DNA from: a virus
Length of the DNA: 18,217 nt
Reading direction: 5' to 3' (one strand)
Virus genome (UHGV): UHGV-0816550
The position numbers and the translations under genes are program-made. Shown in pieces: positions 1 through 18,217 of this stretch. Under the pieces are notes generated by a model. That model was not told the DNA's origin. It saw nothing but the letters and a program-made list of their open reading frames with translations, and ran no database searches. Within the stretch, counting starts at the first letter, position 1, and the number at the start of each line of letters is the position of its first letter.

Positions 1-438
1 TTAACCCATCCCACTGGAACAACCAGCCTGTTAACTTTGTCTCGTTTCGGGAGTCGTTTCATTTTCTATCCTAGTATTGAAGCAGATACTCCTGTTTATC
101 CTGATGATGGAAGCCCTTTGATTCCAGCAGAAAACTCAGTGATTCTTAGCTATTATGCGGACCCACCGGAATTCCATGAAGATACAGATACCAGTGCTAT
201 CCTTACTATTGCACCAGAGCTTCTTCTGTATTTCACTCTACGTCACGCTTGCTTATTTGTTCAAGATGATAATGGAGTTCAGAAATGGTCTGCATTAGGA
301 AAAGCTATCCTTGATGAAATAGTAGAGCAGCATAAGAAACAAGAGTACTCAGGTTCACCTATCGCAATTCCGAATAACATGACTCGACTTCAGAGCAGCT
401 TGCCTGATATTTATGGTATTCGTACTTCTCGTGTATAA
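1..438 (+). CDS. 5'-truncated hypothetical phage structural protein (baseplate or fibre-adjacent), C-terminal part only
   Basis: Frame 1 is open from base 1 with no stop, so the ORF enters from upstream of the window; TAA at 436-438. The stop lies 9 nt before the tail fibre start, with the fibre's AAGGAG site at 437-442 overlapping it. No family motif recognised. Confidence 0.55.
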   Translation, partial: LTHPTGTTSLLTLSRFGSRFIFYPSIEADTPVYPDDGSPLIPAENSVILSYYADPPEFHEDTDTSAILTIAPELLLYFTLRHACLFVQDDNGVQKWSALGKAILDEIVEQHKKQEYSGSPIAIPNNMTRLQSSLPDIYGIRTSRV

Positions 439-447
439 GGAGATAAT

Positions 448-3400
448 ATGATCGTTTATAATAGCCAAGCACCTGATGCAGTGAATGATGTTGGGCAGTT
501 TGGTGCTAAGGAAGGCTCTATCGGAGCTTACAAGCAAGCAGCAGAATATGCAGCTGACTCCAAATATTGGGCACTGCTAGCGGAGTCTAAGTTTGGTACA
601 ATTGATGACTTGATCACTGAAGTAGAACGTCTGTATCAACAAGGTGTTTTAATGAAGCAAGATATCGAAGATCTTAAACAGGACTTTAAAGATCAAGATG
701 CTCGTTTGATGACACTTATTGCTCAGACTAACGCAGCAGTGTCGGATGCTAATAATGCCGTTGCTTTAATCAATCAGAAACTTATTGAGGTTCAGAAACA
801 GCTTGATGTTCTGTTGGGAATGTCTGTTGACGTAACTACACTTCCTCCGGGAACTCCGGCTACTGGCTCTTTTAATCCGAACACTGGTGTAATCTCTTTA
901 GGTATTCCAGAAGGTGATCCCGGAAAGGATGGTTCTGTTAAAGATTTGGATACAGCACCTACTGGTGTTCCAGAGCTAGGTGATTTAGGTTTCTATGTTG
1001 ACAAAGATGACAATACTGTCCACAAGACTACTCTAGAGAATATTGCTAACTTAATTCCATCTGTTCGTTCTGTGTCTGTTAACGGTGGAACACCTGCTGA
1101 TGGAGAAGTTAATCTGGTCCTAGACAAAACTACTGTAGGTCTTAATAACGTAGTTAACGTAGCCTCTTATAGTATCTCTCAAGTTGACGGTAAAGTGGAT
1201 GGGTATGTTAAAACCTACAGAACCAAAGCTGCTGCGGATGCTGATGTAGTTAACCGAAAGGTTGGCGAAAACATCCTAGTTTGGGAGGATTATAAATACG
1301 TCTTCTACACTGTAGCTGCCGATAAAACACTAACTCTTTCTAAAACAGAAAATAGGATTGTTACGGTAAACTCTCGAGTTCCGGATTCTACTGGTAATAT
1401 TGATATTACGATACCTACCGGTAACCCGTCTTTGTATTTGGGTGAGATGTTAATGTTCCCTTATGACCCAGCCAAACAGGTGTCATATCCGGGTGTTCTT
1501 CCAGCTGATGGTCGTCTGGTGTCTAAAGATAACGCTGCTGATTTAGGCCCATCTCTTGTCAGTGGTCAACTTCCTGTTGTTTCTGAAACTGCGTGGCAAG
1601 CTGGAGCTAAACAGTATTTCTCTTGGGGCAAGTTAGCTGATGGGGTTACTGATGCGGATTCAACAAACTTTATCAATATTCGACTTCCCGATTGGACAGG
1701 TGGTGAGGCAATTAGATCTCCAAGTAAAACAAGTGACACTCAGTATGATGGAAGACCTCTTTCTCAGGTTCCTTATGTTGTTGCTGTTAACGGTAAGATC
1801 CCTAATGAAGCAACAGGTAATGTTACAGTCACAGCATCAGATGTAGGTGCCCTTCCTACTACTGGTGGTAAGATGACAGGCCATCTAAATCTCAGCTCTG
1901 GGATTGTGTTAACAGGTACCGCGAGTTCTGGAACATCCATTAATATCGCAACTGTTGCAACTGATGGTTCCGTTCTTCTCGGTAGTGATACAGTTAAAGC
2001 TAAAGTCCTATCTTCTGATGTCCCTGTTTATGCAAGCGCTTCGGGAGAGAAGAAGTTTTACACTGAGGCTAACAAACCAACTCCTGCTGAAATAGGGGCT
2101 GCTGCTATCACCTCTGCTGGGGTTAACGGGGATATCACTAAGCTTGAAGGTTTGGTTGGCCCTACTCGACTGGGTGGAGATGCTGTAGGTGATCTAGATG
2201 CTGTTACCTTACGTCAGTTAAGAAACCAAGGGGGTGGCGGTGGTGGGGCTAGCTTGAACGGTGTCTCTAATTTCAATATTGGTGATTTCCGTTTAGTAGA
2301 CAGTCGTGCTCTTATTCACTCTAATGACGTAACTTCTGACGGTCAATTATTATCTCGTACGGCATACCCAGATCTGTGGGCTTATGCTCAAGCGTTGTCT
2401 CCTATCACAGATGCTGCTTGGCTGGCTGACCCCCAACAAAGAGGTAAATACTCTTTAGGTGATGGTTCTACTACATTCCGTGTCCCTGACCGAAATGGTG
2501 TCCAAAGCGGCTCTATCACAGGGTTGTTTGGTAGGGGTGACTCTGGTAATTCTTCTAACAGTGGTTCAGTTTCTGATGCTTCTCTGCCAAACATCACAGC
2601 TAGCTTCTCTTCAGACTTAAACGGAAAAGCTTGGTTTCCTTTCACTACAGCTGACGGGTCTATGCTTGTCTCAACATCCGGTAGTGGAACTTTTATGCCA
2701 ACTGCTGGATATGAAACTGGGACCCAAGGAAATATACTTAGGTTCGATGCATCTAGACAATCCTCAGTTTATGGTCGATATAGTAACACCCAGAACGTAA
2801 TACCTAAAAGTTTTACTGGCGTTTGGGTAATCAGGGCTACTGGTGGATTCACTGCTGCTAATACAGAGTGGTCTGTTATTAACTCCGATGCAACCAAACC
2901 TTCTACTGGGTTTACAGTGTCTGGTGGTTTAGTCCGCTCTGAGTATAAAATAGGGACCGACCTAACTTACTCAGCAACCTTGTCTGCTTATGGGCAAATT
3001 GATGGAGCCTCCGGAACATCTGGAGCTAAAATCTTAAACGGGTCTCAGGAGTGGAAATTCAACAATGCTGGAACATTAGTTCTTCCTAATGCGGTATCTC
3101 AGCTTGGTACAGAAAGACCTGATGGAGCTATCAATGTTGATGCATACCTAAGACCTAAAGATTTGGTAGCCAACTCACTGAACTCTGTCGGTGTTGCGGC
3201 TTACGAGCGAAACGGTATGAGGATGATTAACTTCAATCAAACCACTCCTGGATATGTTTCTTACTTCTCTGGGGATTGGTATGATGGCAGTTACACTCTT
3301 GGTGGCGTTCGTGGTACTGGTACAGACCTGATTCATGCTCAGATTGCGGTAAACAACGGTCAAGGTGTAGCAGCTGATTTTAAGTTCATGCCGGACGGAA

Positions 3401-3762
3401 CTGCTCAAGCAGGGAACTGGTCAAGCACTTCAGACGAAAGACTTAAAACTAACATCAAGCGTATTGAGAATCCTATTGAAAAACTTAAGGCTATCAAAGG
3501 TGTTACTTGGGAACGTCTTGATAAACTTCCTAAACCTAATGGTATTGGCTTCCTTGCGCAAGATGTGGAGAAGGTTTTCCCTGACGCTGTTAAGGCTCTC
3601 CAGTATTCAGACACTGAATTGAAAGATGGAACTATTGTGAAAGATGTTAAGTCTGTAGACACCTATGGGGTAGCTGCTGCACTGCATCACGAAGTCCTAT
3701 TAGTTTTGTTAGATAGAATAGAAGCTCTTGAGAAAGAAGTAAATGAATTAAGGGCACGGTAA
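448..3762 (+). CDS. Tail fibre / tailspike protein 1 (1104 aa) with tail-collar module and C-terminal intramolecular chaperone domain
   Basis: ATG 448 preceded by AAGGAG (437-442). Predicted coiled-coil N-terminus; poly-Gly hinge (QGGGGGGAS); collar-like motif AYPDLWAYAQAL...GDGSTTFRVPDRNG at about 2362-2500; C-terminal S-DERLKTNIKRIENPIEKLKAIKGVTWERLD...LHHEV typical of peptidase S74 self-cleaving chaperone domains. Confidence 0.9.
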   Translation: MIVYNSQAPDAVNDVGQFGAKEGSIGAYKQAAEYAADSKYWALLAESKFGTIDDLITEVERLYQQGVLMKQDIEDLKQDFKDQDARLMTLIAQTNAAVSDANNAVALINQKLIEVQKQLDVLLGMSVDVTTLPPGTPATGSFNPNTGVISLGIPEGDPGKDGSVKDLDTAPTGVPELGDLGFYVDKDDNTVHKTTLENIANLIPSVRSVSVNGGTPADGEVNLVLDKTTVGLNNVVNVASYSISQVDGKVDGYVKTYRTKAAADADVVNRKVGENILVWEDYKYVFYTVAADKTLTLSKTENRIVTVNSRVPDSTGNIDITIPTGNPSLYLGEMLMFPYDPAKQVSYPGVLPADGRLVSKDNAADLGPSLVSGQLPVVSETAWQAGAKQYFSWGKLADGVTDADSTNFINIRLPDWTGGEAIRSPSKTSDTQYDGRPLSQVPYVVAVNGKIPNEATGNVTVTASDVGALPTTGGKMTGHLNLSSGIVLTGTASSGTSINIATVATDGSVLLGSDTVKAKVLSSDVPVYASASGEKKFYTEANKPTPAEIGAAAITSAGVNGDITKLEGLVGPTRLGGDAVGDLDAVTLRQLRNQGGGGGGASLNGVSNFNIGDFRLVDSRALIHSNDVTSDGQLLSRTAYPDLWAYAQALSPITDAAWLADPQQRGKYSLGDGSTTFRVPDRNGVQSGSITGLFGRGDSGNSSNSGSVSDASLPNITASFSSDLNGKAWFPFTTADGSMLVSTSGSGTFMPTAGYETGTQGNILRFDASRQSSVYGRYSNTQNVIPKSFTGVWVIRATGGFTAANTEWSVINSDATKPSTGFTVSGGLVRSEYKIGTDLTYSATLSAYGQIDGASGTSGAKILNGSQEWKFNNAGTLVLPNAVSQLGTERPDGAINVDAYLRPKDLVANSLNSVGVAAYERNGMRMINFNQTTPGYVSYFSGDWYDGSYTLGGVRGTGTDLIHAQIAVNNGQGVAADFKFMPDGTAQAGNWSSTSDERLKTNIKRIENPIEKLKAIKGVTWERLDKLPKPNGIGFLAQDVEKVFPDAVKALQYSDTELKDGTIVKDVKSVDTYGVAAALHHEVLLVLLDRIEALEKEVNELRAR
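3430..3759 (+). other. Intramolecular chaperone (peptidase S74-like) domain of fibre 1, with predicted autocleavage near the Ser-Asp at 3430-3435
   Basis: Motif SDERLKTNI...GVTWERL...GIGFLAQDVEKVFPDAV...LHHEVLLVLLDRIEALEKEVNELR matches the conserved endosialidase/tailspike C-terminal chaperone signature ending in a coiled coil. Confidence 0.7.
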
Positions 3763-3772
3763 TATAAATAAT

Positions 3773-3791
3773 GCTCCCTTCGGGGAGCTTT
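3773..3791 (+). terminator. Stem-loop GCTCCC-TTCG-GGGAGC followed by TTT; candidate terminator or RNA processing/stability hairpin
   Basis: Perfect 6-bp GC-rich inverted repeat with a UUCG tetraloop 11 nt after the fibre 1 stop; only a short U-tract; the AAGGAG site of the next gene follows at 3792. Confidence 0.5.
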
Positions 3792-3803
3792 AAGGAGATT
3801 TAA

Positions 3804-5900
3804 ATGTCTAGAGATTTAATGCCCAAATCTGGCATACTTCAACCATATGTTGTTGTTTCCAGAGATGCAGCTGTTGTTGGCGTTTCCACTGTAGATGGTG
3901 TTGCTGGAGCTGTAAATTTAACTGATAAATACTTGCAGAAAACAGAAGCGGCTGATGTATATCAAACTAAAACAGAAGGTGCATCTAAAGATTATGTATT
4001 AGATTCAATTAAACCTATCATGGAAGGTGCTTTGTTCAAAGCAGACCCTTTTGTAGATAATAACATCCCTTTCCGTTCTGCTGGGGCTAATGGTGTAGAG
4101 TCTGTGGATATGATGAAAGTCACCACTGATAACTCAATTAAGATTGGTAGTTATGCTTCCTCAGTTCAAGGTGTAGAAATTCACTCTGCTGGTCGTCTTC
4201 AGGTTGTTGACCAGAATGACTCTGGGGTAGAAACTAAGTACCCTGTTTATTCTAAACGATACCGCCCTGAGATTGAAGATTTACCTTTCGCTGCAATCGG
4301 AACTTATGTTAAAGATTCAAAAGGTCGTACTGTTGGTGTTACCCGTACAGGTATTAACTCTGATATCAAACAGCTTACACAGAAGGTTACTTTCACTCAG
4401 CCAGTAACTGTTGCCGATGCAGTTGGTGACTATGATGCTGTCACACTAAGACAACTCCGTAATAGTAGTGGTGGTTCTGGTGGTCCTACAATGAGCGGTA
4501 TTTCTAACTTTGGTATTGGTGATTTCAGACTAGTAGACAGCCGTGCTTTTATCCAATCAAATGATGTTACCTCAGATGGTCAGCTGTTAAATCGTGCTGA
4601 TTACCCAGAGCTTTGGGCTTACGCACAACTATTGACCCCAATTAGTGATGCAGATTGGCTGGCTGACCCCCAACAAAGAGGTAAATACTCTTTAGGTGAT
4701 GGTTCTACTACTTTCCGCGTTCCTGATAGAAATGGCGTTCAAACCGGTTCTATCTCTGGTCTGTATGCTCGCGGTGACGGTGGTAACAGCTCCAACGACG
4801 GTACTGTTCAGCAGAACGCCGCGCCTGATATTACAGGCTCCGTTGGTGCGAACATATGGAGCGTATATGGAGATCCTACGGGGGCGATGTTTGCGGCTGA
4901 TCCAGCACTTAATATTCCGTTAGGCGCAGGAACCACACCAGCGCTTTCCGTCGGCTTTCGAGCGGGCCTATCAAACGCCGCTTATGGTCGCGACAACACG
5001 ACCGAAGTCCGCACCAACAGCTTCATAGGTGTCTGGGTTATTCGTGCTAATGGTGGCTTTACTGCTGCTAATACTTCTTGGTCTGTTATTAATGGCGACA
5101 GCGTTGCTCCGGGTACTGGAACAAAGATAGTAGGTGGTGAGATTCGTTCTGACTATAATATTGGAGACTCTATGCACATAAGATCCTCTATGCGTGCTGA
5201 TGGTAACTACGGTCAACGTGGAGGTGGTGTATGGAGAATTGAGGACTATCAAGGTAAAAGTGCAGAGATATCTTTCAACCTTGGTGGTGAGTTAGTGGTC
5301 CCAACATACACCAGAGGCGTGGGGTCGGGTTTCATTGCATCTTCTAAATTAGGGTCTGATGGTCAGTGGCCTACAACATCCCCGGCGTTTATTTGTGAGC
5401 TAACAGGCAGAGTGGGTAATCCCGGAACACCGGGTGCTGTTTTCTCCATGTCTATGGCGGAGAACGTGGGTGTTGATAGCTTTGGCATACTTAGATTCTC
5501 AGGAGCAGGGGTGAATGTGGACTGGCTGTTTAACCAGTTTGGTAGTGCCATAGCTCCTGCTAACTGGGTGAGTAATTCGGATATCCGAATTAAAAAGGAT
5601 ATTGCTAAGATAGAAGAACCTCTTGAGAAGATGAAGAAACTACATGGGTACACTTGGCGACGCTTAGACGGGGGCCAGTTTGGTATTGGGTTCATTGCTC
5701 AAGAAGTTCAGGATATCTATCCAGAGTTGGTCTATACAGGCCCAGACAGAACCCTCCCTGATGGAACAGTTGTCAAAGGTGTCCTATCTCCAGATTCTAC
5801 TGGTATTGCGATTGGTCTTCACCACGAAGCTATTCTGGCTTTGATGGAACAAATCGACACCCTTAAAGCAGAGATTGCTGAACTCAAATCTAACAAATGA
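3804..5900 (+). CDS. Tail fibre / tailspike protein 2 (698 aa), paralogue of fibre 1 with collar module and C-terminal intramolecular chaperone domain
   Basis: ATG 3804 with AAGGAG at 3792-3797. Collar-like motif ADYPELWAYAQLL...GDGSTTFRVPDRNG at about 4596-4737, roughly 80% aa-identical to fibre 1 over this module; C-terminal SDIRIKKDIAKIEEPLEKMKKLHGYTWRRLD...LHHEAILALMEQIDTLKAEIAELK. Confidence 0.9.
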   Translation: MSRDLMPKSGILQPYVVVSRDAAVVGVSTVDGVAGAVNLTDKYLQKTEAADVYQTKTEGASKDYVLDSIKPIMEGALFKADPFVDNNIPFRSAGANGVESVDMMKVTTDNSIKIGSYASSVQGVEIHSAGRLQVVDQNDSGVETKYPVYSKRYRPEIEDLPFAAIGTYVKDSKGRTVGVTRTGINSDIKQLTQKVTFTQPVTVADAVGDYDAVTLRQLRNSSGGSGGPTMSGISNFGIGDFRLVDSRAFIQSNDVTSDGQLLNRADYPELWAYAQLLTPISDADWLADPQQRGKYSLGDGSTTFRVPDRNGVQTGSISGLYARGDGGNSSNDGTVQQNAAPDITGSVGANIWSVYGDPTGAMFAADPALNIPLGAGTTPALSVGFRAGLSNAAYGRDNTTEVRTNSFIGVWVIRANGGFTAANTSWSVINGDSVAPGTGTKIVGGEIRSDYNIGDSMHIRSSMRADGNYGQRGGGVWRIEDYQGKSAEISFNLGGELVVPTYTRGVGSGFIASSKLGSDGQWPTTSPAFICELTGRVGNPGTPGAVFSMSMAENVGVDSFGILRFSGAGVNVDWLFNQFGSAIAPANWVSNSDIRIKKDIAKIEEPLEKMKKLHGYTWRRLDGGQFGIGFIAQEVQDIYPELVYTGPDRTLPDGTVVKGVLSPDSTGIAIGLHHEAILALMEQIDTLKAEIAELKSNK
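5577..5897 (+). other. Intramolecular chaperone (peptidase S74-like) domain of fibre 2
   Basis: NSDIRIKKDI...HGYTWRRL...GIGFIAQEVQDIYPELV...GLHHEAIL plus terminal coiled coil; homologous to the fibre 1 C-terminus but divergent (I estimate about 40% identity by eye). Confidence 0.7.
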
Positions 5901-6211: not shown

Positions 6212-6240
6212 TTTAAAGGGACTACAAAAGGAGGTTAGGA

Positions 6241-6732
6241 ATGGATAACGCCGCATTGCCACCTGTACAACTAAACTTAAGCCCAGCTGGAATGGAATTC
6301 ATCATGAAGCATGAGGGTATGAGAACCAAGGCTTATAAAGATTCCGCAGGTATATGGACTATATGTGTAGGGGCTACGCGCGATATGAATGGTTATCCGG
6401 TTAGACAAGGATTAACGTATTCTATAGAGGATTGTCTAGCTCTGCTAGATAGAGACACACAAGACTCTGTTCGTGCTACTCAAAAGAACATAAAGGTTCC
6501 TTTACTAGTTCATGAGTTTGATGCACTCACTTCTTTCAACTTCAATGTTGGCAGTGGTGCTTTGAGCACATCTAAGTTAAGGAAGGTTATCAATGGAGAA
6601 GTTAAAGGGGATGTATATTCCGAATTTCTTCGTTGGGATAAAATAACGGTCAAGGGAGAGAAGCAGAGAAGTCAGGGTCTTCATAATAGAAGGGTTGCAG
6701 AAGCTGATCTTTACACCGAAGGTAAATATTAA
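6241..6732 (+). CDS. Endolysin, T4-type lysozyme (glycoside hydrolase family 24)
   Basis: ATG 6241 with AAAGGAGG at 6226-6233. HEG-MRTKAYKD-SAGIWTICVG reproduces the T4 lysozyme catalytic spacing Glu-(9)-Asp-(6)-Thr (T4 E11/D20/T26; here E25/D34/T40). No N-terminal hydrophobic segment, so it would be holin-dependent. Confidence 0.9.
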   Translation: MDNAALPPVQLNLSPAGMEFIMKHEGMRTKAYKDSAGIWTICVGATRDMNGYPVRQGLTYSIEDCLALLDRDTQDSVRATQKNIKVPLLVHEFDALTSFNFNVGSGALSTSKLRKVINGEVKGDVYSEFLRWDKITVKGEKQRSQGLHNRRVAEADLYTEGKY

Positions 6733-6744
6733 TGGAGGTGCCTT

Positions 6745-7548
6745 TTGGCTATCGAAACTAATGCGGTAGTTATTACCGACTTAAACCCGCTCTATCCTAG
6801 AGACAGGGATTACATCTACGAAGGGGCGGCTCAAATCCGCCTCATTAAACAAACGTTACAGAACACATTCCCCAATGTTACAGAACCGGTTGATATAGAT
6901 TCTGATACCTTTAAGATTATGTCAGAGAAGCTTAAGTTTACTGGTGATGCAATGGATGTTGGTGGTCTTATGATCAAGAATGTTACTCCGGGAACTGGTG
7001 ACAAGGATGTTGTTACTAAAGGCCAGATGGAAGCGTTCATGAAGAACTGGATGGAGAATAAGCTCTATCGAATTGGTTCTTACTATATCACTGAAGAAGA
7101 CATTAACCCAGGTGATTCAATCTCCTTAGGGTTTGGTTCTTGGGCTAAAGTGACTGGTGTCATTATGGGTACTGGTGTAGTAAACCCTGATGGAACTGTT
7201 CCTAATGCTCAGAGAGTTGAGTTCCAAGCAGGTGGTACTGGTGGTCGTGTCTTCAATACTATTCGAACTGAGAACGTACCTTTGATGACAGTTAATGGCT
7301 CCAGCTTCTCTCTATCCAGTAATACTCACAGTCACAATATGGTGTTTGGTCGTGGGGATGCTAGTGGTCATAACAGCTCACCAAACTGGTATAGTCCGGG
7401 TGGTGGTTATAGTCAGAGAACTGATAATGACACACATACTCATACAATCTCTGGTAGTGTAAGTCTTGGTCGTGATGATATCTCTCGTCAACCTATTAAC
7501 ACTTTGCCACCATTCAGAGCAGCTCACATTTGGAGACGTATTAGCTAA
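6745..7548 (+). CDS. Short tail fibre-like / receptor-binding tail protein (267 aa) with two HxH motifs
   Basis: TTG start at 6745 with GGAGG at 6734-6738; no in-frame ATG nearby. C-terminal region NTHSHNMVFGRGDASGHNSS...DTHTHTISG has HxH motifs and an FGRGD-x-G-x-NSS motif also present in both fibres, recalling the T4 gp12 type collar and metal-binding tip region. Confidence 0.7.
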   Translation: MAIETNAVVITDLNPLYPRDRDYIYEGAAQIRLIKQTLQNTFPNVTEPVDIDSDTFKIMSEKLKFTGDAMDVGGLMIKNVTPGTGDKDVVTKGQMEAFMKNWMENKLYRIGSYYITEEDINPGDSISLGFGSWAKVTGVIMGTGVVNPDGTVPNAQRVEFQAGGTGGRVFNTIRTENVPLMTVNGSSFSLSSNTHSHNMVFGRGDASGHNSSPNWYSPGGGYSQRTDNDTHTHTISGSVSLGRDDISRQPINTLPPFRAAHIWRRIS

Positions 7549-7557
7549 GGAGGAATT

Positions 7558-10500
7558 ATGGCGCTGTATCCAATAAAGTCACTAGGTGCTGTAGGCGTTA
7601 TCGCTGATCAGGCTCCGACAGACTTAGCTCCTAATGCTTTCACTAATGCTATAAATGCTCGATTTGTTGAGCAGAGAGTATTTAAGACGGGGGGCAATGC
7701 CCCTCTTTCTTATGTAGATGAAGATAAGGATTTAACCCCTCTGTCTTTCGTTTCTATGCCTTTCGATTATTATAGCGCAGGTAATAGCTTTCTTGTTGTA
7801 GGTACTAATAAGAAGTTATATAAACTGACAGATGAAAGCTTGACTGATATTAGCCGTAAGGTTGCTACAGTCACTAAGAAGGCTTCTGCCTCAATTAAGA
7901 TTTATCCAGTTGTTTCTCAGATCGTTCCTAAAGAATCAACTATCTCAATGAACTTCAATCAGACCAAGAATCTAGAGGTTTCTCTTCTCCCTGCTGATGC
8001 TAACAATACCGATCTTATTTGGGAGGTTAGTAACTCATCCTATGGAAGTATTACGGTAGACCCTAGTGACTCTAAACTTGCTACTCTAACATCTTTTGAG
8101 AAAGAGGGTAATCTTGTAGTAACTATCTCTACTGCCAATGAATCCGTAGTGGCTCAGATTGCTGTTAATATTATCGATGGCGATTCAGGCATCTTCTTGA
8201 GTCAAGACACTGTTACAATTCGTAAAGGAGGGACTACTACTCTCACGGCTGTTACTGGCAAGACTCCTGTAACTTGGTCCAGCAATAACGCTTCTATTGT
8301 ATCTGTAACCCCTAATGCCAACTCTTTAACTGCTGTCATTACAGCGAATGGAGAAGGTAATGTAACAATCACTGCTGATAACGGGACTAAGACTGCTTCT
8401 TGTGAGATTGTTTCTATCCCTCAGATTGATAGTATCTCTTTAAGCCAGTCAGATGTTACTGTGAGTAGAGGTTCTCAGTATATTTTAACTGCCACCCTTT
8501 CTCCTGCTAACGCCCCTAATCAAAACATTACTTGGACCTCTTCTAACCCAAATATTGCAACAGTATCAGGGACTAGCACACAAGGGACGATCAACGCTCT
8601 GCTTGCTGGTTTTACTGAGATTACAGCTACCACTGAAGAAGGTAACAGAGTTGCTGTCTGTACTGTACGTGTGGATTTAGCTGGAAGGACAATGAGAACA
8701 AGTGCTATGGCATTTGCCGCTCCTGTGTCAGAGTCAGTAGAAACTCAAGAGGAAGAAGTAGTAACTCCTCCTGAAAGTGAAGAGACGGTTTATTTTGCTG
8801 AGCCTACATCCGGTATTGATACGTCAGGGATGTATGAAGGTAACAACTTCTACGACTACTCTAACGTGAATGACATTGAAGGTTTTGCAAGAGCTTCTTT
8901 ACTGGCAACCCCTTTGTCGTCTGTAACCTTAGATATTGTCAGCGCCTCCCTTGATGTTGGTGAAGAGATTGTCATTACAGCCACAGCTTCTCCAGAAGGT
9001 GAGTACTCTTATCAGTGGTCTGTTGATAAAACTGGTTATGTTTCTACAACTTCAGTTACTGGTAAATCTATCAAACTGGTTGCTCTTCGTAAAGGAGAGA
9101 TTAACGTAACATGTACTGTCAGCCAGATGACTCAGAAAGATTATGATGCTTTTGATGACTACCCTTGGTATCACGCTGTTATCTCTAACTGTGCAGTTGC
9201 TACAACTCACTATGAAACTCCTCAGGTAAAAGAATTCGAATCAGAATACTTTGTAGACCTCCCGGGGTGGGGTGAGCAAACAGTTGTTGATAATGATGGA
9301 AACCCTTCAGTCAAGAAGTTTAACTGGAAATGTGAGAGAGTGAGATCTTTTAACAACCGTCTTTTTGCTCTGAATATGAGAGAGGCTAATGCTTCTGGTG
9401 TTACCACTAACTATCCGCTTCGTCTTCGTTGGTCTAACTTTGCCAATGAGAACAAGGCTCCTACACTGTGGGATGACTTTGCCTATGATCGAGTTGTGTC
9501 TTCGGACTTAGCTTCTAACATCGTAGGGCAGACTCAGGCTCTAGAGAATGGGTATGCTGGTTACATCGACTTAGCAGATTCTAATGGTAGCTTGATTGAT
9601 ATCCTACCTCTTAAAGACTACTTGTTTGTTTATACAGAGTTTGAAACGTATATTGGTTCTCCGACTAATAACACATACCAACCTCTGATGTTCAAGAAGC
9701 TCTTTAACGACTCTGGTATCCTTGCTCCCGAGTGTGTGGTTGAAGTAGAAGGCAGTCACTTCGTAGTTACTCAGAACGATGTAATCTTACACAATGGCGC
9801 AACCAAGAAGTCAATTGCATCTAACCGTGTCAAGAACATGCTGATTAACGAGGTGTGTCTGGTTAATCCTCTAGCAACTCGAGTACACTTGCATCAGGAT
9901 AAGAAAGAAGTTTGGGTTCTGTATGTAGGTCCGGGAGAACCAAAAGAAAGCTTCGCTTGCACCAAAGCTGCTGTATGGAATTATGAGTTTGATACCTGGT
10001 CTTTCCGTACTATCCCATATGCTCAGTGTATTGGTCTGGTTGATCCTCCTGTTTTAGAAAGAGGTCCAATCTGGTCTGACTTCCAAGAAATCACTTGGGA
10101 TGATCCGTCTATTAAAGAACTCGTTTGGAGAAAGGATGCAACAAACTTTAGACAGAGGGTTACGATAGTAGGTTCGTTCTTGAGGGGATTCTATCAGGTG
10201 GATGTAGGTGCTCTTGATTATTTCTATGACAGGCTAAACGATGTTGTTATAGAGAAGCCTCTGGAAATGAGGTTGGAGAGGACTGGTATAGATTTTGATA
10301 ATGTGACGAATGAGTGGAATCAGAAGCATATTAATAGATTCCGACCTCAGACAACTGGCTCAGGTACTTACATATTTGAAGCTGGTGGCAGTCAATTCTC
10401 AAATGAATATGGACACCCACATACATCTAAGACTTATACAATCGGTGTTGACAGGCATGTCTCGGTGAGACTGAACCATCCATACCTTTTCTATAATGTT

Positions 10501-10575
10501 ATAGATAATGATGTTAACAGTAATGCTGCTATCAATGGTTTGACGATAGAGTTTGCTGTTGGCGGGCGGAGATAA
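7558..10575 (+). CDS. Large virion structural protein (1005 aa) with four internal Ig-like (Big_2-type) domains
   Basis: ATG 7558 with AAGGAGG at 7547-7553. Four roughly 80-aa repeats between about 7903 and 9120 with the Big_2 pattern (for example TISMNFNQTKNLEVSLLPADANNTDLIWEVSNSSYGSITVD; VTIRKGGTTTLTAVTGKTPVTWSSNNASIVSV; VTVSRGSQYILTATLSPANAPNQNITWTSSNPNIATV). Flanking N- and C-terminal regions not recognised. Confidence 0.8.
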   Translation: MALYPIKSLGAVGVIADQAPTDLAPNAFTNAINARFVEQRVFKTGGNAPLSYVDEDKDLTPLSFVSMPFDYYSAGNSFLVVGTNKKLYKLTDESLTDISRKVATVTKKASASIKIYPVVSQIVPKESTISMNFNQTKNLEVSLLPADANNTDLIWEVSNSSYGSITVDPSDSKLATLTSFEKEGNLVVTISTANESVVAQIAVNIIDGDSGIFLSQDTVTIRKGGTTTLTAVTGKTPVTWSSNNASIVSVTPNANSLTAVITANGEGNVTITADNGTKTASCEIVSIPQIDSISLSQSDVTVSRGSQYILTATLSPANAPNQNITWTSSNPNIATVSGTSTQGTINALLAGFTEITATTEEGNRVAVCTVRVDLAGRTMRTSAMAFAAPVSESVETQEEEVVTPPESEETVYFAEPTSGIDTSGMYEGNNFYDYSNVNDIEGFARASLLATPLSSVTLDIVSASLDVGEEIVITATASPEGEYSYQWSVDKTGYVSTTSVTGKSIKLVALRKGEINVTCTVSQMTQKDYDAFDDYPWYHAVISNCAVATTHYETPQVKEFESEYFVDLPGWGEQTVVDNDGNPSVKKFNWKCERVRSFNNRLFALNMREANASGVTTNYPLRLRWSNFANENKAPTLWDDFAYDRVVSSDLASNIVGQTQALENGYAGYIDLADSNGSLIDILPLKDYLFVYTEFETYIGSPTNNTYQPLMFKKLFNDSGILAPECVVEVEGSHFVVTQNDVILHNGATKKSIASNRVKNMLINEVCLVNPLATRVHLHQDKKEVWVLYVGPGEPKESFACTKAAVWNYEFDTWSFRTIPYAQCIGLVDPPVLERGPIWSDFQEITWDDPSIKELVWRKDATNFRQRVTIVGSFLRGFYQVDVGALDYFYDRLNDVVIEKPLEMRLERTGIDFDNVTNEWNQKHINRFRPQTTGSGTYIFEAGGSQFSNEYGHPHTSKTYTIGVDRHVSVRLNHPYLFYNVIDNDVNSNAAINGLTIEFAVGGRR

Positions 10576-10579
10576 CAAC

Positions 10580-10608
10580 AAGGGGCTTCGTGCCCCTTTT
10601 ATTGTTTT
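10580..10608 (+). terminator. Rho-independent terminator-like hairpin AAGGGGC-TTCGT-GCCCCTT followed by a U-rich tract
   Basis: 7-bp GC-rich stem at 10580-10586 / 10592-10598, then TTATTGTTTT; lies 5 nt after the TAA stop at 10573-10575 and before the next gene's GGAGGA site. Confidence 0.6.
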
Positions 10609-10618
10609 GGAGGAACTT

Positions 10619-11587
10619 ATGGGTGCAGGTGGTTTTCGTAAGAATACTGGTCGCAACAATACCACACTCCCGTACAACGTTGGGTTTCTCAATAATGTAC
10701 AGGACACAGAAACATATAACGTAGCCGTATATGATGAGCTACAAAAAGTCAGTACAGCTACTAACCAAATGTTCCAAGCTATAGATGAAATTCACGAAGA
10801 GATTGATGTTCGTATTAAAGCTCTTAATGCAATGAATCTACAATTTGATGAGCTTGAGAATAGAATTACTACAGAGATAGAAACAGCTATTGCAGATATC
10901 CAAACCCAGATGGGGAACCTGTCCACTGAGGATATTTGGGATAATTCTGTTCAACCTCCTGTGAAGCTGGAAAGCACTGTATCTGGTTTTAAGACTAGCA
11001 TCGAAGGTAACACAACTAAGATTCAGACAGTAGAAGGTATTGTTAACGATCAAGGTCAAGAGATTGCTCTTGTTCAGACAGAACTGCAAAATATCAACGG
11101 AAGCCTTTCTCAGTATATGAAACTCTCTGAGTATGAAGCTACGTGGGGTGTTAACTCTACAGTCAACGGAAGATATGCTGGGGTCAAGTTAACTAACAAC
11201 GGAACAAACAGTCAATTCCAAGTAACAGCTAACAAATTTATTGTTGGTGATGGCAGCTCTGGGAATACTCCCTTCGTATTTGAGGGTGGGCGAGCTAGGA
11301 TGGAATTCGCTGATATAAAGAATGTCAATATCACAACAGCTCAGATTGCTAACGCTAGAATCCAATGGGCACAGATTGATAACGTATCCATCTCCAACGC
11401 CCAGATTCAGAACTTGTCAGCGGATAAGATTACTGCTGGTTCTATGTGGGGTTCTAACTGGAGACTTACTGTTGGTGGTGACTTTGTTATGGGTGGTACA
11501 GGTGGAGCGCAGTTGTGGATGAATGGTAACAGAATAGACTTCTATGATGGAAGTGGTGCTCTTAGAATCAGGATAGGGAGTTGGTAA
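10619..11587 (+). CDS. Tail protein (322 aa) with coiled-coil region and J-like beta-repeat C-terminal domain
   Basis: ATG 10619 with GGAGGA at 10609-10614; the ORF-track start at 10553 is a TTG inside the previous gene and terminator. Heptad-like central region; C-terminal repeats NITTAQIANARIQWAQIDNVSISNAQIQNLSADKITAGS resemble tail tip / host-specificity protein repeats. Confidence 0.75.
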   Translation: MGAGGFRKNTGRNNTTLPYNVGFLNNVQDTETYNVAVYDELQKVSTATNQMFQAIDEIHEEIDVRIKALNAMNLQFDELENRITTEIETAIADIQTQMGNLSTEDIWDNSVQPPVKLESTVSGFKTSIEGNTTKIQTVEGIVNDQGQEIALVQTELQNINGSLSQYMKLSEYEATWGVNSTVNGRYAGVKLTNNGTNSQFQVTANKFIVGDGSSGNTPFVFEGGRARMEFADIKNVNITTAQIANARIQWAQIDNVSISNAQIQNLSADKITAGSMWGSNWRLTVGGDFVMGGTGGAQLWMNGNRIDFYDGSGALRIRIGSW

Positions 11588-11588
11588 T

Positions 11589-12620
11589 ATGGCATATGGA
11601 ATATGGACACAACCAGTAGGGCCGGGGCCAGCAACCCCCGCTCCCTTATTTATTGATAGCGGAAGTACTTTCCCTCAGTTCAAGAATAGTATAAGAGGGA
11701 GTTTTAACTTTAATGGAGCTGGGAGATCTTTCCCTATTAGTGGATGGGATGGCAGTGGTCAGATAGTTATTGTTCCCACCGGTTCTTTATGCTGGCAATG
11801 GGAAGTCCCTCCTAACCTAGTTCCTGATGTTTATTGTGTGAATAATATCTACGTAGAAAACAGTTCCTCTTTTAGAGTTACTCTGAATCAGAACCCCGGC
11901 AGTAACCCCTTATTTGACTGTGGGTTCAACGTATATCAAATATGGCCTAGAGCGGATAGGAATTACGGAATTACCTTTTCTAATACAGCAGACTACTTCT
12001 CGATATCTGATAGTGGGGTCGTCGGTCAATGTATTTGGGCTTGGCAGGGGACCATAAACAATGCCCTTCAGATACCAAATATCGGTGGGTTCAATATGAC
12101 CAATGCTGTTGTGTTTGCTAATTGGTCTGATGGAGGGATAGGACTATCTTATACTTCTGATGACAGGGTTATTCGTGTTTATCAGAACAGACCTTACATA
12201 AACGGCAACACTAATGAGGGTGGTTCTGTGTTTGCTAGAATTGCAGTATTCTGCAATGGAGCAGGAGTTCCGGAACATAACGGAGGTTTGAATATTTACT
12301 CTCCGGGTACCACGCAATGTGTCTTCTCTACTAATAGAACACCTTTCACTGTGGATACTTTTATAGGCTCAGGAGGTGGTAACACTGGAATGTCATACCC
12401 TATGATACCTCTTACCTCTGGAATAGGTGCGATAAAAGGCCAAGGCAGTGGATGGAGGTATCAGCAAATGAGATCTCACACAATGAGTGGTTCTAGCATA
12501 GGAACTGGTTATGGAAGATATCTATTTCAATGGGATCAAAATTACGACCTAGGAGCTGATACTGTAGTTAATTTATCAGTTCCTGTAATAAATGCAGCTA
12601 AGGTTTTTGCTGGACTATAA
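11589..12620 (+). CDS. Hypothetical virion protein (343 aa), Gly/Asn/Trp-rich
   Basis: ATG 11589 lies 1 nt after the TAA of the previous gene (TAATATG), suggesting translational coupling. Long ORF with composition like neighbouring structural genes; no family motif recognised. Confidence 0.7.
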   Translation: MAYGIWTQPVGPGPATPAPLFIDSGSTFPQFKNSIRGSFNFNGAGRSFPISGWDGSGQIVIVPTGSLCWQWEVPPNLVPDVYCVNNIYVENSSSFRVTLNQNPGSNPLFDCGFNVYQIWPRADRNYGITFSNTADYFSISDSGVVGQCIWAWQGTINNALQIPNIGGFNMTNAVVFANWSDGGIGLSYTSDDRVIRVYQNRPYINGNTNEGGSVFARIAVFCNGAGVPEHNGGLNIYSPGTTQCVFSTNRTPFTVDTFIGSGGGNTGMSYPMIPLTSGIGAIKGQGSGWRYQQMRSHTMSGSSIGTGYGRYLFQWDQNYDLGADTVVNLSVPVINAAKVFAGL

Positions 12621-15482: not shown

Positions 15483-16274
15483 ATGCAACAGACAACTTAC
15501 GCTCAGGTCAGAAGTCGTGACCCGAGAAATACTTTCTATGGTGTTAATCCGGGAGCGGCTTCGGCCTCTCCTTATATGGCTAGACCAACTCAGACAGCAG
15601 ATATTTCTATGTATCAACGTCCTGCTATACCTGCTGGGCTTTCCTCTCTTGTAGGTCAAACTTCAGTAGATTATCAGAATATGTTGAATCCTGTTCAGAG
15701 TAATGGTCTTCCTTCTGATATCCCAAATGATGTACAACCTCAAGCACAACAGGCTGTAACTCTTCCTGAGTTTGAGAATCAAGAAACCATGCAAGCTGCT
15801 GGACTTTCTCCTTCTTCTATTCCTCCAGAATCAGAACCTCTTCCGGTAACACCTCCTACTAAACCGTTAGAAGCTGGTCCTATGGAGTTTACTCCTTCTC
15901 AGGTGGAACAGGCACAAGGTGTGATTAATACTCTTGCTCAAGGACAAGACGCTGGTGATGGAATGACTGCTGCTACTCGTGCTAAAGATCAGGAACGTGT
16001 TAACAACGATATCTTGCAAGTTGCTAAAGCTAAAAATCCTTCAGAAGCTTGGAATAAACTACAGAAAGAACCTTTCTATCAGAACTCCAGTTTCTATACA
16101 GGTTTAATGGGTGTAGGTCTTTCTATCATGTCAGGTAAGTCTCCTATTGAAGCTTTCCAGATTGGTCAGGGAATGGCTAATCAAGATGAGACTAAGAAGC
16201 AACTGGAAGCTAACCGTGATGCTCTGATTGAACAAGGCTTCTCCCAAGACTCGATCGCAGCTGCTATTGCTTAA
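15483..16274 (+). CDS. Hypothetical virion/ejection-associated protein (263 aa) with Pro-rich linker and C-terminal hydrophobic segment
   Basis: ATG 15483 with AGGAG at 15473-15477. Pro/Ser-rich linker (SPSSIPPESEPLPVTPPTKPLEAGP) and hydrophobic FYTGLMGVGLSIMSG near the C-terminus; no family motif recognised. Confidence 0.65.
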   Translation: MQQTTYAQVRSRDPRNTFYGVNPGAASASPYMARPTQTADISMYQRPAIPAGLSSLVGQTSVDYQNMLNPVQSNGLPSDIPNDVQPQAQQAVTLPEFENQETMQAAGLSPSSIPPESEPLPVTPPTKPLEAGPMEFTPSQVEQAQGVINTLAQGQDAGDGMTAATRAKDQERVNNDILQVAKAKNPSEAWNKLQKEPFYQNSSFYTGLMGVGLSIMSGKSPIEAFQIGQGMANQDETKKQLEANRDALIEQGFSQDSIAAAIA

Positions 16275-17967
16275 CACGTTGAGAGCGAGCACGCTGAGAA
16301 GAGAAGCGATTCAGAGCATACTTAGCAGCACCGAGAGTGTTCATTACCAGACTAGGTGAAGAAGCCTCACGGAATCCATCATCAGTCAGGGAAGTCCAAC
16401 CACGATCTTGGTTACTCATAAACTTAGCCGTATTGTTCAGAGTGTAAGCATCTTGGATAGGATTAAAACCTTCAGGCATGCCTTTCAGTTTCTTCAACCC
16501 ACCGATAGCTTTCTTCATCTCTGGAGAAACGTTATCAGCCATCTTCTGTAGTTCAGCAGCTTTCTCTACGAAGTTGTTAAAGTCTTCACCATCACGAGCT
16601 TTGAATCGATTTGCTTCGTTATAGAAAGTCTTGTACGCATCAATGAAATCACGGTCAGCTTGTGTGCGATTCTTAATATCAATCGGACTGCCAGTAAAGT
16701 CACCAGAAGCTCGGAGAGAAACTAACTCACGATCAAGATTATCCAGAACATCTGTAAGAGCTTTAGTGTTATCCTTGGTGTAGTCAGCCATTGCATCTTT
16801 CATAGCGACAGCTTGCTTCTGGTTGTGCTCATTATCAGCGAAGGCTTTACCACGAGTCTTAGCCGGAGAAGCTAAAGGGTTAAGGCCCGGAATGTTGGAA
16901 TGTTCTTTCTGAACAGAAGCAGCTTTCTCAGCACGAGCTTGGTCAGTATTAAGAATACGCTGAGCAGCAGGAGAATCTACAGCAACAGCATCTGTGATAC
17001 GGAATCCGTTCTCGTCGAGAAGGTTCAGAGCAGAAGCAGCGTTAGCAGTTTCAGCTTTAGAGTAAGCCTCTTTCAGCTCATCAATATTCTTAGCACCACG
17101 AATCAGTTCATCATCAGCAGCAATATCAGTCTTCGCATATTCTGGAGTGTTCTTGAAGACAGCAGAATCCGGACGGCTAATCAAACCATGAACTCCACCA
17201 ACTGCACCACCAAATGCAGCACCCATAGCCCCTTCTTCAATAACCCCTTCCAATGTCTTAGCTAAATCATTGTCATCACCATACTTGTTCTGAACTTCAG
17301 CAGCACCAACAAGAGCACCACCTTTAGCACCAGCCACTGCGTTACTAGCAACGTTCTGACCAATACGACCAAGTGTGGACTCAGCTGTACCAACAGCACC
17401 CGGAAGGATTCTCTGAGCTGCATAGTTAGCACCACCAACTAAGGCTGCATCTAGAACAGACTTATCTTCTCCCTCTTCAGGGGTTTGGTCTGCATACGCA
17501 CGACCGGTCTCACGACCTGCGATGATAGCAGCGGCAGCTAATGGGTTAGCAACTGTCAGACCAATGTCGGCAACCACCCCAGCATACTGACCAGCAGACT
17601 TACCAATCCCATCCTCAATCTTATCCATACGTTCTTTCAAGAGGTTTTGAGCGTTCTCTTGCATACGCTTCCCGTAACCAGTTTGTGCTCCAGTTAGATC
17701 TTCACCAATCTCAACTAAGCCCCCAATACCTCTAGCAAGATTAGCAGAGATGTTAGCACTGCCGGACTGAAGAGCATTTGACACACCTTGAGCAAACTCA
17801 CCTATAGCACCACGTTCTTCTTGTTGTGGTTGTGCTACTGGCTGTTCCTCAGGAATAGAGCCACCTGCTGCCTTATATTGTTCTCTCATTCGAGCTTGTT
17901 GCTCCGGAGAGGCATTCAGATACGCAGGAGCTTTGGAAGCTTCTTCCCACGGTTTAATGTTAGCCAT
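16264..17967 (-). CDS. Hypothetical Gly/Ala-rich protein (567 aa), function unknown
   Basis: Minus-strand ATG at 17965-17967 preceded by AAGGAG; product begins MANIKPWEEAS. The ORF-track start at 18012 has no ribosome-binding site. Stop TAG at 16264-16266 overlaps the 3' end of the + strand gene ending at 16274. Confidence 0.75.
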   Translation of the reverse strand: MANIKPWEEASKAPAYLNASPEQQARMREQYKAAGGSIPEEQPVAQPQQEERGAIGEFAQGVSNALQSGSANISANLARGIGGLVEIGEDLTGAQTGYGKRMQENAQNLLKERMDKIEDGIGKSAGQYAGVVADIGLTVANPLAAAAIIAGRETGRAYADQTPEEGEDKSVLDAALVGGANYAAQRILPGAVGTAESTLGRIGQNVASNAVAGAKGGALVGAAEVQNKYGDDNDLAKTLEGVIEEGAMGAAFGGAVGGVHGLISRPDSAVFKNTPEYAKTDIAADDELIRGAKNIDELKEAYSKAETANAASALNLLDENGFRITDAVAVDSPAAQRILNTDQARAEKAASVQKEHSNIPGLNPLASPAKTRGKAFADNEHNQKQAVAMKDAMADYTKDNTKALTDVLDNLDRELVSLRASGDFTGSPIDIKNRTQADRDFIDAYKTFYNEANRFKARDGEDFNNFVEKAAELQKMADNVSPEMKKAIGGLKKLKGMPEGFNPIQDAYTLNNTAKFMSNQDRGWTSLTDDGFREASSPSLVMNTLGAAKYALNRFSSQRARSQRVKQ

Positions 17968-18035
17968 AACGTCTCCTTTTATAAATAAAAATGTCCTACC
18001 CCCTATATACATTATAGAAGGCAGGACTTAGGTCT

Positions 18036-18217
18036 TATTGAGTGAACCAGCTCGTATCTTCAACAGCTGATAGAGCACCATTAAGCTTAGGATTGGTTGC
18101 TGCACCACCAACCGCTTCTTCTGCTTGTTCAGAGAAAACACCTAGAGGGTCATAGAAACCACCAGAAGGGATTGCACGGTTAACCAATGCAGTAGCCCTC
18201 TTCTTGTCCATACCAGA
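18036..18217 (-). CDS. Small minus-strand ORF, possibly the C-terminus of a gene that starts beyond the window end
   Basis: Frame open from the window edge to TAA (complement of 18036-18038); internal ATG at 18209-18211 would give a 57-aa product MDKKRATALVNRAIPSGGFYDPLGVF...; codon usage like neighbours. Start not determinable. Confidence 0.35.

What the first reader, a model, noticed from the sequence alone, without database searches (positions are those of the whole stretch)
7903..9120. Array of four Ig-like domains inserted into a large structural protein
Four tandem Big_2-like repeats occupy the middle of the 1005-aa protein, between unrelated N- and C-terminal regions. Ig-like domains are known accessory decorations on phage structural proteins that may bind cell-surface carbohydrates weakly; the insertion suggests modular gain.
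Basis: partly seen in the sequence, partly recalled or inferred. Interest (0 to 1): 0.4.

Follow-up and report, generated by a model that had tools for sequence, protein, structure and literature searches.

The report
Kuravirus nozzle protein Ig-like domains
The four immunoglobulin-like domains are real, but they are the already published "nozzle domains" of the tail nozzle protein of phage SU10-type coliphages, which swing out to lengthen the short tail for DNA delivery, so the finding is correct but not new.

Summary
ORF 7558..10575 (+) encodes a 1005-aa protein with four Ig-like (Big_2-type) domains at aa 116-206, 207-287, 288-374 and 451-527. They sit inside the reported 7903..9120.

The window is the tail module of a Kuravirus (phiEco32/SU10 group). 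The protein matches SU10 gp17 at 1003 of 1005 residues. SU10 gp17 is the nozzle protein solved by cryo-EM (PDB 7Z47, 7Z4A, 7Z4B, 7Z4F; Siborova et al. 2022, PMC9509320). That paper describes four Ig-like "nozzle domains" inserted between blades 2 and 3 of a seven-bladed beta-propeller. They are L-shaped in the virion and straighten on attachment. Together with the short tail fibres they form a 277 A nozzle.

Two details of the finding need correcting:
- **Not strictly tandem.** A 76-aa tether, unresolved by cryo-EM, separates the third and fourth domains.
- **Flanks are one fold.** The N- and C-terminal regions are two halves of the same platform and propeller.

"Modular gain" is supported. 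Most homologues are 500-580 aa and lack the insert. "Weak carbohydrate-binding decoration" is untested, and the published structure assigns a mechanical role instead.

Verdict: real, already known, low interest.

The parts
7558..10575 (+). Nozzle protein gene, homologue of SU10 gp17 (1005 aa plus stop)
   Evidence: 1003/1005 aa identical to SU10 gp17 and to PDB 7Z47_G. Full-length match to phrog_14417. Syntenic with SU10.
7558..7860 (+). [quoted passage not shown] Conserved in homologues that lack the insert.
   Evidence: Aligns to the N-termini of 500-620-aa homologues. Domain assignment comes from the SU10 structure.
7861..7902 (+). aa 102-115: entry segment from the propeller into the insert, predicted as a long beta-strand (aa 104-116)
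   Evidence: AlphaFold2 secondary structure. Insert boundary from comparison with P0123 and P0125.
7903..8175 (+). Ig-like domain Da (aa 116-206), first in sequence
   Evidence: Big_2 18.4 bits, below the cut-off. pLDDT about 80-90. hhalign to Db 97.2% and to Dc 97.5%.
8176..8418 (+). Ig-like domain Db (aa 207-287)
   Evidence: Big_2 29.4 bits, E = 7.7e-7. pLDDT about 85-92. hhalign to Dc 98.6%.
8419..8679 (+). Ig-like domain Dc (aa 288-374), the best Big_2 match. It contains residues 303-308, which the SU10 paper places in 'nozzle domain 4' as the contact with the short tail fibre.
   Evidence: Big_2 62 bits, E = 5.4e-17. Paper text.
8680..8907 (+). Tether, aa 375-450, not Ig-like. The first half (375-417) is acidic and hypervariable. 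The second half (418-450) is aromatic-rich and conserved.
   Evidence: No Pfam match at E below 0.1. pLDDT below 50 with no secondary structure. Residues 376-451 are not modelled in SU10 cryo-EM. Per-region identity and length variation. 14 D+E against 3 K+R.
8908..9138 (+). Ig-like domain Dd (aa 451-527), fourth in sequence and the most divergent. Inferred to be the domain next to the propeller.
   Evidence: Big_2 15.2 bits, below the cut-off. pLDDT about 75-86. hhalign to Dc 89% and to Da 82%.
9163..10572 (+). [quoted passage not shown] Includes the short-tail-fibre dock loop with Trp839, Trp847 and Trp857 (window 10072..10128).
   Evidence: Homologous to 1636 representatives, mostly 500-580 aa. 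Matches PDB 9NWI_Y, 8ZKK_O and 8ZKM_E. W839, W847 and W857 are invariant in A1 and A2. Their role is described in the paper.
6745..7548 (+). Short tail fibre gene (SU10 gp16 homologue), the partner that alternates with the Ig-like domains in the extended nozzle
   Evidence: One substitution relative to SU10 gp16. phrog_6465 tail protein. Role from the paper.
10619..11587 (+). Tail needle gene (SU10 gp18 homologue), which plugs the nozzle channel
   Evidence: Identical to SU10 gp18. phrog_16534 matches aa 23-344 of the longest ORF, so the true start is at 10619.

Best explanation
The gene encodes the tail nozzle protein of a Kuravirus, the homologue of SU10 gp17. Six copies form the hub below the portal-adaptor complex.

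The core of each copy is a platform domain and a seven-bladed beta-propeller. Both are built from the N-terminal ~100 and C-terminal ~470 residues together. A ~430-residue module (aa ~102-535) is inserted in the loop between blades 2 and 3. It holds four Ig-like (Big_2-type) domains and a 76-residue flexible tether.

In the resting virion the four domains lie in an L shape wrapped around the tail. They are held by contacts with neighbouring subunits and with the short tail fibre. [quoted passage not shown] The short fibres rotate by 135 degrees. [quoted passage not shown] The needle leaves and DNA is delivered.

What is shown by published cryo-EM of a protein identical at 1003 of 1005 residues: the fold, the insertion site and the two conformations.

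What I infer from 'residues 303-308 lie in nozzle domain 4', and did not check on coordinates:
- The spatial order differs from the sequence order. The fourth domain in sequence would sit next to the propeller, and the third in sequence would be the tip.
- The tether would be the return path of the chain.

The insert was gained once in the ancestor of this clade, by a hub protein that is normally 500-580 aa long.
For: - **Identity to the solved protein.** Match to PDB 7Z47_G, 7Z4A, 7Z4B and 7Z4F at 2266 bits over residues 1-1005. The only differences from SU10 gp17 are D152N and R876K.
- **Context.** Collinear with the SU10 tail module, between the short tail fibre and tail needle genes.
- **Published description (PMC9509320).** Platform, seven-bladed propeller, four Ig-like nozzle domains between blades 2 and 3, L-to-straight rearrangement, 277 A nozzle. 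Built residues 2-375, 452-648 and 664-1005.
- **Independent checks here.** Big_2 match. AlphaFold2 gives four confident beta domains and a disordered 375-449. Multi-Ig fold matches. Profile-profile relatedness of the domains.
- **Gain of the insert.** Among 150 representatives of the C-terminal region, only the closest clusters carry a 394-528-aa insert: P0058, P0121 and P0122, and P0063, a homologue measured. About 130 have none. Insert-less examples are GAP52 and Pa223 gp59.
- **Retention.** All 99 Gordonclarkvirinae records cover at least 80% of the query gene, and all 25 aligned homologues keep the four domains. dN/dS is 0.04-0.13 for the Ig domains against 0.01-0.04 for the propeller.
Against: Nothing contradicts it.

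Limits:
- The AlphaFold2 model did not reproduce the propeller (pLDDT below 50, shallow alignment). The propeller and platform assignment therefore rests on near-identity to the solved structure.
- I could not read PDB coordinates. The mapping of sequence domains to 'nozzle domains 1-4' is inferred from one sentence of the paper.
- The trigger and the order of events in the mechanism are the authors' model. It comes from two static states plus tomography.
Confidence: 0.93

Rival explanations
1. One reading: the Ig-like domains are accessory decorations of the kind described by Fraser et al. 2006 and in the Hoc/BAM model. They would weakly bind cell-surface or mucosal carbohydrates and would not be essential for virion mechanics.
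For: - Big_2 domains are a common class of phage Ig-like decoration (established knowledge; phrog_215, 341, 41 and 853 hits to Ig-bearing structural and major tail proteins).
- The domains evolve about three times faster than the propeller.
- In the extended nozzle they would cross the LPS and O-antigen layer, so contact with glycans is geometrically plausible (inference).
Against: - They sit inside a propeller loop, not at a terminus.
- They make defined contacts that hold the virion conformation, and they form half of the extended nozzle.
- Four domains are kept in all 25 aligned homologues, down to 55% identity, and all 99 Gordonclarkvirinae records cover at least 80% of the gene.
- They are under purifying selection, omega about 0.1.
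- No glycan-binding data exist for this protein. The heparan-sulfate-binding ES17 protein is a different, non-Ig tail fibre.
Confidence: 0.1
2. The protein is a receptor-binding protein or tail fibre that sets host range, as many GenBank records label it ('tail fiber protein; host specificity', 'putative receptor binding protein', 'cell adhesion domain protein').
For: - Database names.
- The Ig domains and the first half of the tether are the variable part of the protein.
- For the related Pa223 hub, its authors speculate on a role in host recognition.
Against: - The structure shows a hexameric hub, not a fibre.
- The long (gp12/gp13) and short (gp16) fibres carry the predicted receptor-binding domains.
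- In this window the mosaic, exchanged genes are the long fibre genes, while the nozzle gene is 97.9% identical to SU10.
- The database names predate the structure or follow from the Big_2 hit.
Confidence: 0.05

Closest known systems
Escherichia phage SU10 gp17 nozzle protein (PDB 7Z47, 7Z4A, 7Z4B virion; 7Z4F genome-release intermediate; Siborova et al. 2022, PMC9509320)
   Same: Same protein for practical purposes. 1005 aa, 1003 identical. Same neighbours: short tail fibre upstream, tail needle downstream. Same four Ig-like nozzle domains, tether and fibre-dock tryptophans.
   Different: Two conservative substitutions (D152N in the first Ig-like domain, R876K) and 63 nucleotide differences, almost all synonymous.
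Insert-less tail hub/nozzle proteins of the same family: Pseudomonas phage Pa223 gp59 (PDB 9NWI, 513 aa), 'nozzle gp16' of VP1 (PDB 8ZKK/8ZKM, 521 aa), Cronobacter phage GAP52 gp096 (579 aa), phrog_3287
   Same: Homologous N-terminal and C-terminal regions forming the propeller and the adaptor-binding domain. A fibre attachment loop. A hexameric hub closed by a needle or plug.
   Different: No Ig-like insert at the blade 2/3 site. Tail extension by a nozzle is not described for them. The Pa223 authors describe six blades.
T7 gp12 nozzle protein
   Same: Same domain logic of platform, beta-propeller and nozzle domain, and the same position in the tail, as stated in the SU10 paper.
   Different: No detectable sequence similarity. 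The T7 nozzle domain is not an array of four Ig-like domains and does not unfold to lengthen the tail (from the paper and general knowledge).
Ig-like (Big_2, I-set, FN3) decoration domains on phage structural proteins (Fraser et al. 2006), e.g. T4 Hoc and C-terminal Big_2 domains of siphovirus major tail proteins
   Same: Same domain class. PF02368 match, and PHROG matches to Ig-bearing major tail and structural proteins.
   Different: Those domains are usually terminal add-ons, often dispensable, with proposed weak glycan binding. Here the domains are internal to a propeller loop, kept at a count of four across the aligned homologues, and form a moving structural element.

Membership tests
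Pfam Big_2 (PF02368), bacterial Ig-like domain group 2 | HMM score at or above the gathering score (22.8 bits) | tested here: met
   Whole protein 80.9 bits. By domain: 62 and 29.4 bits are above, 18.4 and 15.2 bits are below. The two weak domains are tied to the strong ones by hhalign at 82-97.5%.
Pfam Big_2 (PF02368), bacterial Ig-like domain group 2 | Beta-sandwich (Ig-like) fold | tested here: met
   AlphaFold2 gives four all-beta domains of 7-8 strands at pLDDT 75-92. Foldseek matches to titin, S-layer and LigA Ig arrays. The cryo-EM paper calls them Ig-like.
Kuravirus nozzle protein (SU10 gp17 type) | Full-length sequence homology to SU10 gp17 | tested here: met
   1003/1005 identical.
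Kuravirus nozzle protein (SU10 gp17 type) | Gene lies between the short tail fibre gene and the tail needle gene in the tail module | tested here: met
   Window 6745..7548 is gp16 (one substitution) and 10619..11587 is gp18 (identical). The window is collinear with SU10 from 5900 to 15632.
Kuravirus nozzle protein (SU10 gp17 type) | Four Ig-like nozzle domains inserted into the propeller (between blades 2 and 3) | tested here: met
   Four domains found. The insert is bounded by sequence shared with insert-less homologues. The blade numbering is taken from the paper.
Kuravirus nozzle protein (SU10 gp17 type) | Short-tail-fibre dock loop with Trp839, Trp847 and Trp857 | tested here: met
   All three tryptophans are present and invariant in alignments A1 and A2.
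Kuravirus nozzle protein (SU10 gp17 type) | Platform plus seven-bladed beta-propeller fold of the N- and C-terminal parts | tested here: inconclusive
   The AlphaFold2 model of these parts has pLDDT below 50. The fold is accepted on near-identity to the solved chain.
Kuravirus nozzle protein (SU10 gp17 type) | L-shaped to straight rearrangement that builds the nozzle on attachment | not testable with these tools
   Known only from cryo-EM and cryo-ET of SU10.
Accessory Ig-like decoration domains of phages (Fraser et al. 2006; BAM model) | Added at a terminus of a structural protein or by frameshift, peripheral to the core fold | tested here: not met
   The insert is internal, at aa ~102-535 of 1005, within a propeller loop.
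Accessory Ig-like decoration domains of phages (Fraser et al. 2006; BAM model) | Dispensable or sporadically present among close relatives | tested here: not met
   All 99 Gordonclarkvirinae records cover at least 80% of the query gene. The 25 aligned homologues, down to 55% identity, all keep four domains. dN/dS is about 0.1.
Accessory Ig-like decoration domains of phages (Fraser et al. 2006; BAM model) | Weak binding to carbohydrates | not testable with these tools
   I found no binding data for this protein. ES17-TFP is another protein.

The most novel reading that the evidence does not exclude
The most novel reading not excluded concerns the 76-residue tether between the third and fourth Ig-like domains. 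It is invisible in both cryo-EM states, yet it may be more than a passive return loop. Its second half (aa 418-450, GIDTSGMYEGNNFYDYSNVNDIEGFARASLLA) is the best conserved stretch of the whole insert. It could be a latch or a contact site (for LPS, membrane or ejection proteins) that controls or completes nozzle extension. A related possibility is that the Ig-like domains also bind O-antigen glycans while crossing the LPS layer.
Probability: 0.12. Interest if true: 0.35.

Novelty: already known. Interest (0 to 1): 0.1.

Why it matters
It matters little as a discovery. The architecture and its role in tail extension were published in 2022 for an almost identical protein. At least one GenBank record (phage Paul) already notes "four Ig-like domains".

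Two things are useful:
- **Annotation.** This gene is widely mislabelled as "tail fiber protein; host specificity", "surface protein" or "cell adhesion domain protein". It should be called the nozzle (tail hub) protein.
- **Caution about Ig-like domains.** Ig-like domains in phage structural proteins are not always passive glycan-binding decorations. Here a module inserted into a propeller loop became a moving part.

The survey done here adds a small point. The blade 2/3 loop of this hub family is a recurrent insertion site, with inserts of about 65-530 aa of differing kinds in a few lineages.

Tried and rejected
1. **Full-length AlphaFold2 with a 26-sequence alignment.** It gave confident Ig domains only. 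The propeller and platform were not modelled (pLDDT below 50), so it could not test the insertion site by itself.
2. **DNA-level repeats.** None found, so a recent duplication is rejected.
3. **Pairwise BLASTP among the four domains.** Only 23-30% identity with weak scores. Profile-profile comparison was needed.
4. **ES17 lead.** I checked whether the heparan-sulfate and mucin-binding ES17 "tail fiber protein" was this protein, which would have given experimental support for glycan binding. It is a different protein with a pectinesterase/K5-lyase-like domain, and its authors state it has no Ig-like fold.
5. **Positive selection on the Ig domains.** Rejected at the domain level: pairwise dN/dS is 0.04-0.13. 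dS is saturated for distant pairs. Site models were not run.
6. **Literature search for the VP1 nozzle structures 8ZKK/8ZKM.** No paper found in the library.
7. **Full-length protein search.** It was swamped by unrelated multi-Big_2 bacterial proteins after the 63 orthologues. The C-terminal part alone was needed to find insert-less relatives.

Full report
**What is in the window.** The 18.2-kb window is a run of + strand genes. PHROG matches label them as tail fibres, endolysin, tail protein, a 1005-aa "tail fiber protein; host specificity", tail needle-like fibre, transglycosylase and DNA ejection proteins. Megablast places it in the Gordonclarkvirinae (phiEco32/SU10 group, genus Kuravirus). 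The 3018-nt gene at 7558..10575 is 97.9% identical to SU10 and 97.0% to phiEco32, and 99 phage records match it. The window is collinear with the SU10 tail module.

**Check of the observation.** The ORF 7558..10575 encodes 1005 aa. Pfam Big_2 matches at E = 6.7e-23.

| Segment (aa) | Big_2 result |
|---|---|
| 116-206 | 18.4 bits, below the 22.8 cut-off |
| 207-287 | 29.4 bits |
| 288-374 | 62 bits |
| 375-450 | no Big_2 match (best other E = 0.17) |
| 451-527 | 15.2 bits, below the cut-off |

- AlphaFold2, run on an alignment of 26 orthologues, predicts four all-beta domains at pLDDT about 75-92 over aa ~110-374 and ~450-525. Residues 375-449 are disordered.
- After the SU10 chains, the model's PDB matches are arrays of Ig domains: titin, S-layer proteins SbsB/SbsC/EA1, and LigA.
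- Profile-profile comparison of the four sub-alignments shows the first three are clearly homologous to each other (97-98.6% probability). The fourth is a divergent relative: 89% to the third, 82% to the first, not significant to the second. The linker resembles none of them.
- No repeat is detectable at the DNA level, and pairwise identity is only 23-30%. The duplication is therefore old.
No ORF of 80 aa or more overlaps the segment on the other strand.

**What it is.** The protein matches PDB chains 7Z47_G, 7Z4A, 7Z4B and 7Z4F over residues 1-1005 (2266 bits). It differs from SU10 gp17 at two positions, D152N and R876K. The SU10 paper (Siborova et al. 2022, PMC9509320) identifies gp17 as the nozzle protein and describes it as follows.
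- A hexamer is attached to the adaptor. Each subunit has a platform domain, a seven-bladed beta-propeller and four Ig-like "nozzle domains" inserted between propeller blades 2 and 3.
- In the virion the four domains form an L. Two make the blunt tip of the tail, there is an 82 degree turn, and two point back to the capsid. They are stabilised by contacts with neighbouring subunits and with the short tail fibre.
- In the genome-release intermediate they form a straight line. The short fibres rotate by 135 degrees. Nozzle proteins and short fibres then alternate in a 277 A nozzle.
- The fibre-dock tryptophans Trp839, Trp847 and Trp857 are present here and are invariant even in distant homologues.
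- The partner genes flank the nozzle gene. The short tail fibre (6745..7548) has one substitution relative to SU10 gp16, and the tail needle (10619..11587) is identical to gp18.

**Two corrections to the finding.**
- *The array is not four in tandem.* A 76-residue segment (aa 375-450) separates the third and fourth domains. It coincides with the residues not modelled in the SU10 map, whose built residues are 2-375, 452-648 and 664-1005 (Supplementary Table 1).
- *Spatial order probably differs from sequence order.* The paper places residues 303-308 in "nozzle domain 4", yet these residues lie in the third domain in sequence. The first three domains are directly concatenated, and the fourth leads back into the propeller at about aa 536. 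The only consistent spatial order is Dd (proximal), Da, Db, Dc (tip), with the tether as the return path. This is my inference. I could not read coordinates.
- *The flanks are not unrelated.* They are two halves of one platform and propeller. They are the parts shared with insert-less homologues.

**Modular gain.** A search with the C-terminal 479 aa against 1.84 billion representatives found 1636 relatives.
- Among the best 150, about 130 full-length proteins are 500-580 aa, with the C-terminal homology starting near residue 90-125. These have no insert.
- Only the closest clusters carry a 394-528-aa insert. P0058 contains this protein's type. P0121 is 964 aa with an almost absent tether. P0122 is 1111 aa with an extra SprB-like domain inside the tether. 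P0063 is a 1040-aa homologue from the full-length search and was measured with them.
- The nearest insert-less relative, P0123 (623 aa, 52% identity over the C-terminal part), has about 35 residues where this protein has about 434.
- Known insert-less examples are the syntenic 579-aa protein of Cronobacter phage GAP52, the Pa223 tail hub gp59 (PDB 9NWI, 513 aa) and "nozzle gp16" of VP1 (PDB 8ZKK/8ZKM).
- A few distant members have other inserts of about 65-340 aa with no Big_2 match: P0144, P0167, P0168 and P0169. The loop may therefore be a recurrent insertion site. For those proteins the exact site was only projected, not aligned.

**Constraint.**
- All 99 Gordonclarkvirinae records cover at least 80% of the gene.
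- All 25 aligned homologues, down to 55% identity, keep four domains.
- The Ig domains diverge faster than the core. At 64% overall identity they are 41-63% identical, against 76% for the core.
- They are nevertheless under purifying selection. dN/dS is 0.04-0.13, against 0.01-0.04 for the propeller and 0.2-0.5 for the first half of the tether. dS is saturated for the distant pairs.
- This fits a structural element with an exposed surface. It does not fit a dispensable ornament.

**The carbohydrate-binding idea.**
- Nothing in the papers I read reports glycan binding by this protein.
- The one lead, heparan-sulfate and mucin binding by the Kuravirus ES17 "tail fiber protein", concerns a different protein. 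Its authors state that it lacks an Ig-like fold.
- The BASEL paper assigns receptor recognition to the long and short fibres, citing the SU10 structure.
- A secondary, weak interaction of the Ig-like domains with LPS glycans while the nozzle crosses that layer is plausible but untested.

**Novelty.** The finding is already known. A cryo-EM paper describes exactly this feature in an almost identical protein. The GenBank note for phage Paul already reads "Contains four Ig-like domains identified by InterProScan".

- residue-level boundaries in this window;
- the coincidence of the non-Ig tether with the unmodelled segment;
- the strong conservation of the tether's second half;
- the family-wide picture of the insert as a clade-specific gain.

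Noticed in passing
window 16267..18217 (junction at 16267-16275): The last 1.95 kb is inverted relative to SU10, and the best-matching kuravirus records listed show the same relative inversion. The window is collinear with SU10 up to 16275, then continues as the reverse complement of a segment lying 676 bp further downstream. The junction falls at a short shared TTGCT motif. It cuts the gp23 homologue to 263 aa (15483..16274) and leaves the first ~567 aa of the gp24 homologue on the minus strand (ORF 16264..18012). Both are virion ejection proteins in SU10, so this is probably an assembly chimera or a defective genome.
   Followed up: partly
window 8809..8907 (aa 418-450 of the nozzle protein): The second half of the tether that is unresolved by cryo-EM (GIDTSGMYEGNNFYDYSNVNDIEGFARASLLA) is the best conserved stretch of the whole insert. 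15 of 33 positions are at least 90% conserved across 26 homologues. The first half (aa 375-417) is acidic, hypervariable and 20-50 aa long. The function of the conserved stretch is unknown.
   Followed up: partly
window 448..3762 and 3804..5900: The two long-tail-fibre genes are mosaic. Only their 5' parts match SU10 (window 1..1110 at 91%, 3759..4643 at 81%). The proximal fibre protein is 1104 aa here against 786 aa in SU10. This is consistent with exchange of receptor-binding parts, while the nozzle gene stays 97.9% identical.
   Followed up: no
proteins P0121, P0122, P0144, P0167, P0168, P0169 (homologues): The insertion site varies in other lineages of the hub family. P0121 has four Big_2 domains but almost no tether. 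P0122 has an extra SprB-like domain inside the tether. P0144, P0167, P0168 and P0169 carry inserts of about 140-340 aa with no Big_2 match. The blade 2/3 loop may be a recurrent insertion hot spot.
   Followed up: partly
window 7558..10575; GenBank records listed: Annotation of this gene across public records is inconsistent and mostly misleading. Names include 'tail fiber protein; host specificity', 'surface protein', 'cell adhesion domain protein', 'N-acetylmuramoyl-L-alanine amidase', 'viral capsid protein' and 'ChW-repeats and cell-adhesion domain containing protein'. The structure shows it is the nozzle (tail hub) protein.
   Followed up: no
window 1..438 and 10553..10618: The window starts inside the adaptor gene (SU10 gp11 homologue), so ORF 37..438 is only its 3' part. 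The longest ORF for the tail needle starts at a TTG at 10553 and overlaps the nozzle gene, but the real start is the ATG at 10619, as in SU10 gp18.
   Followed up: yes
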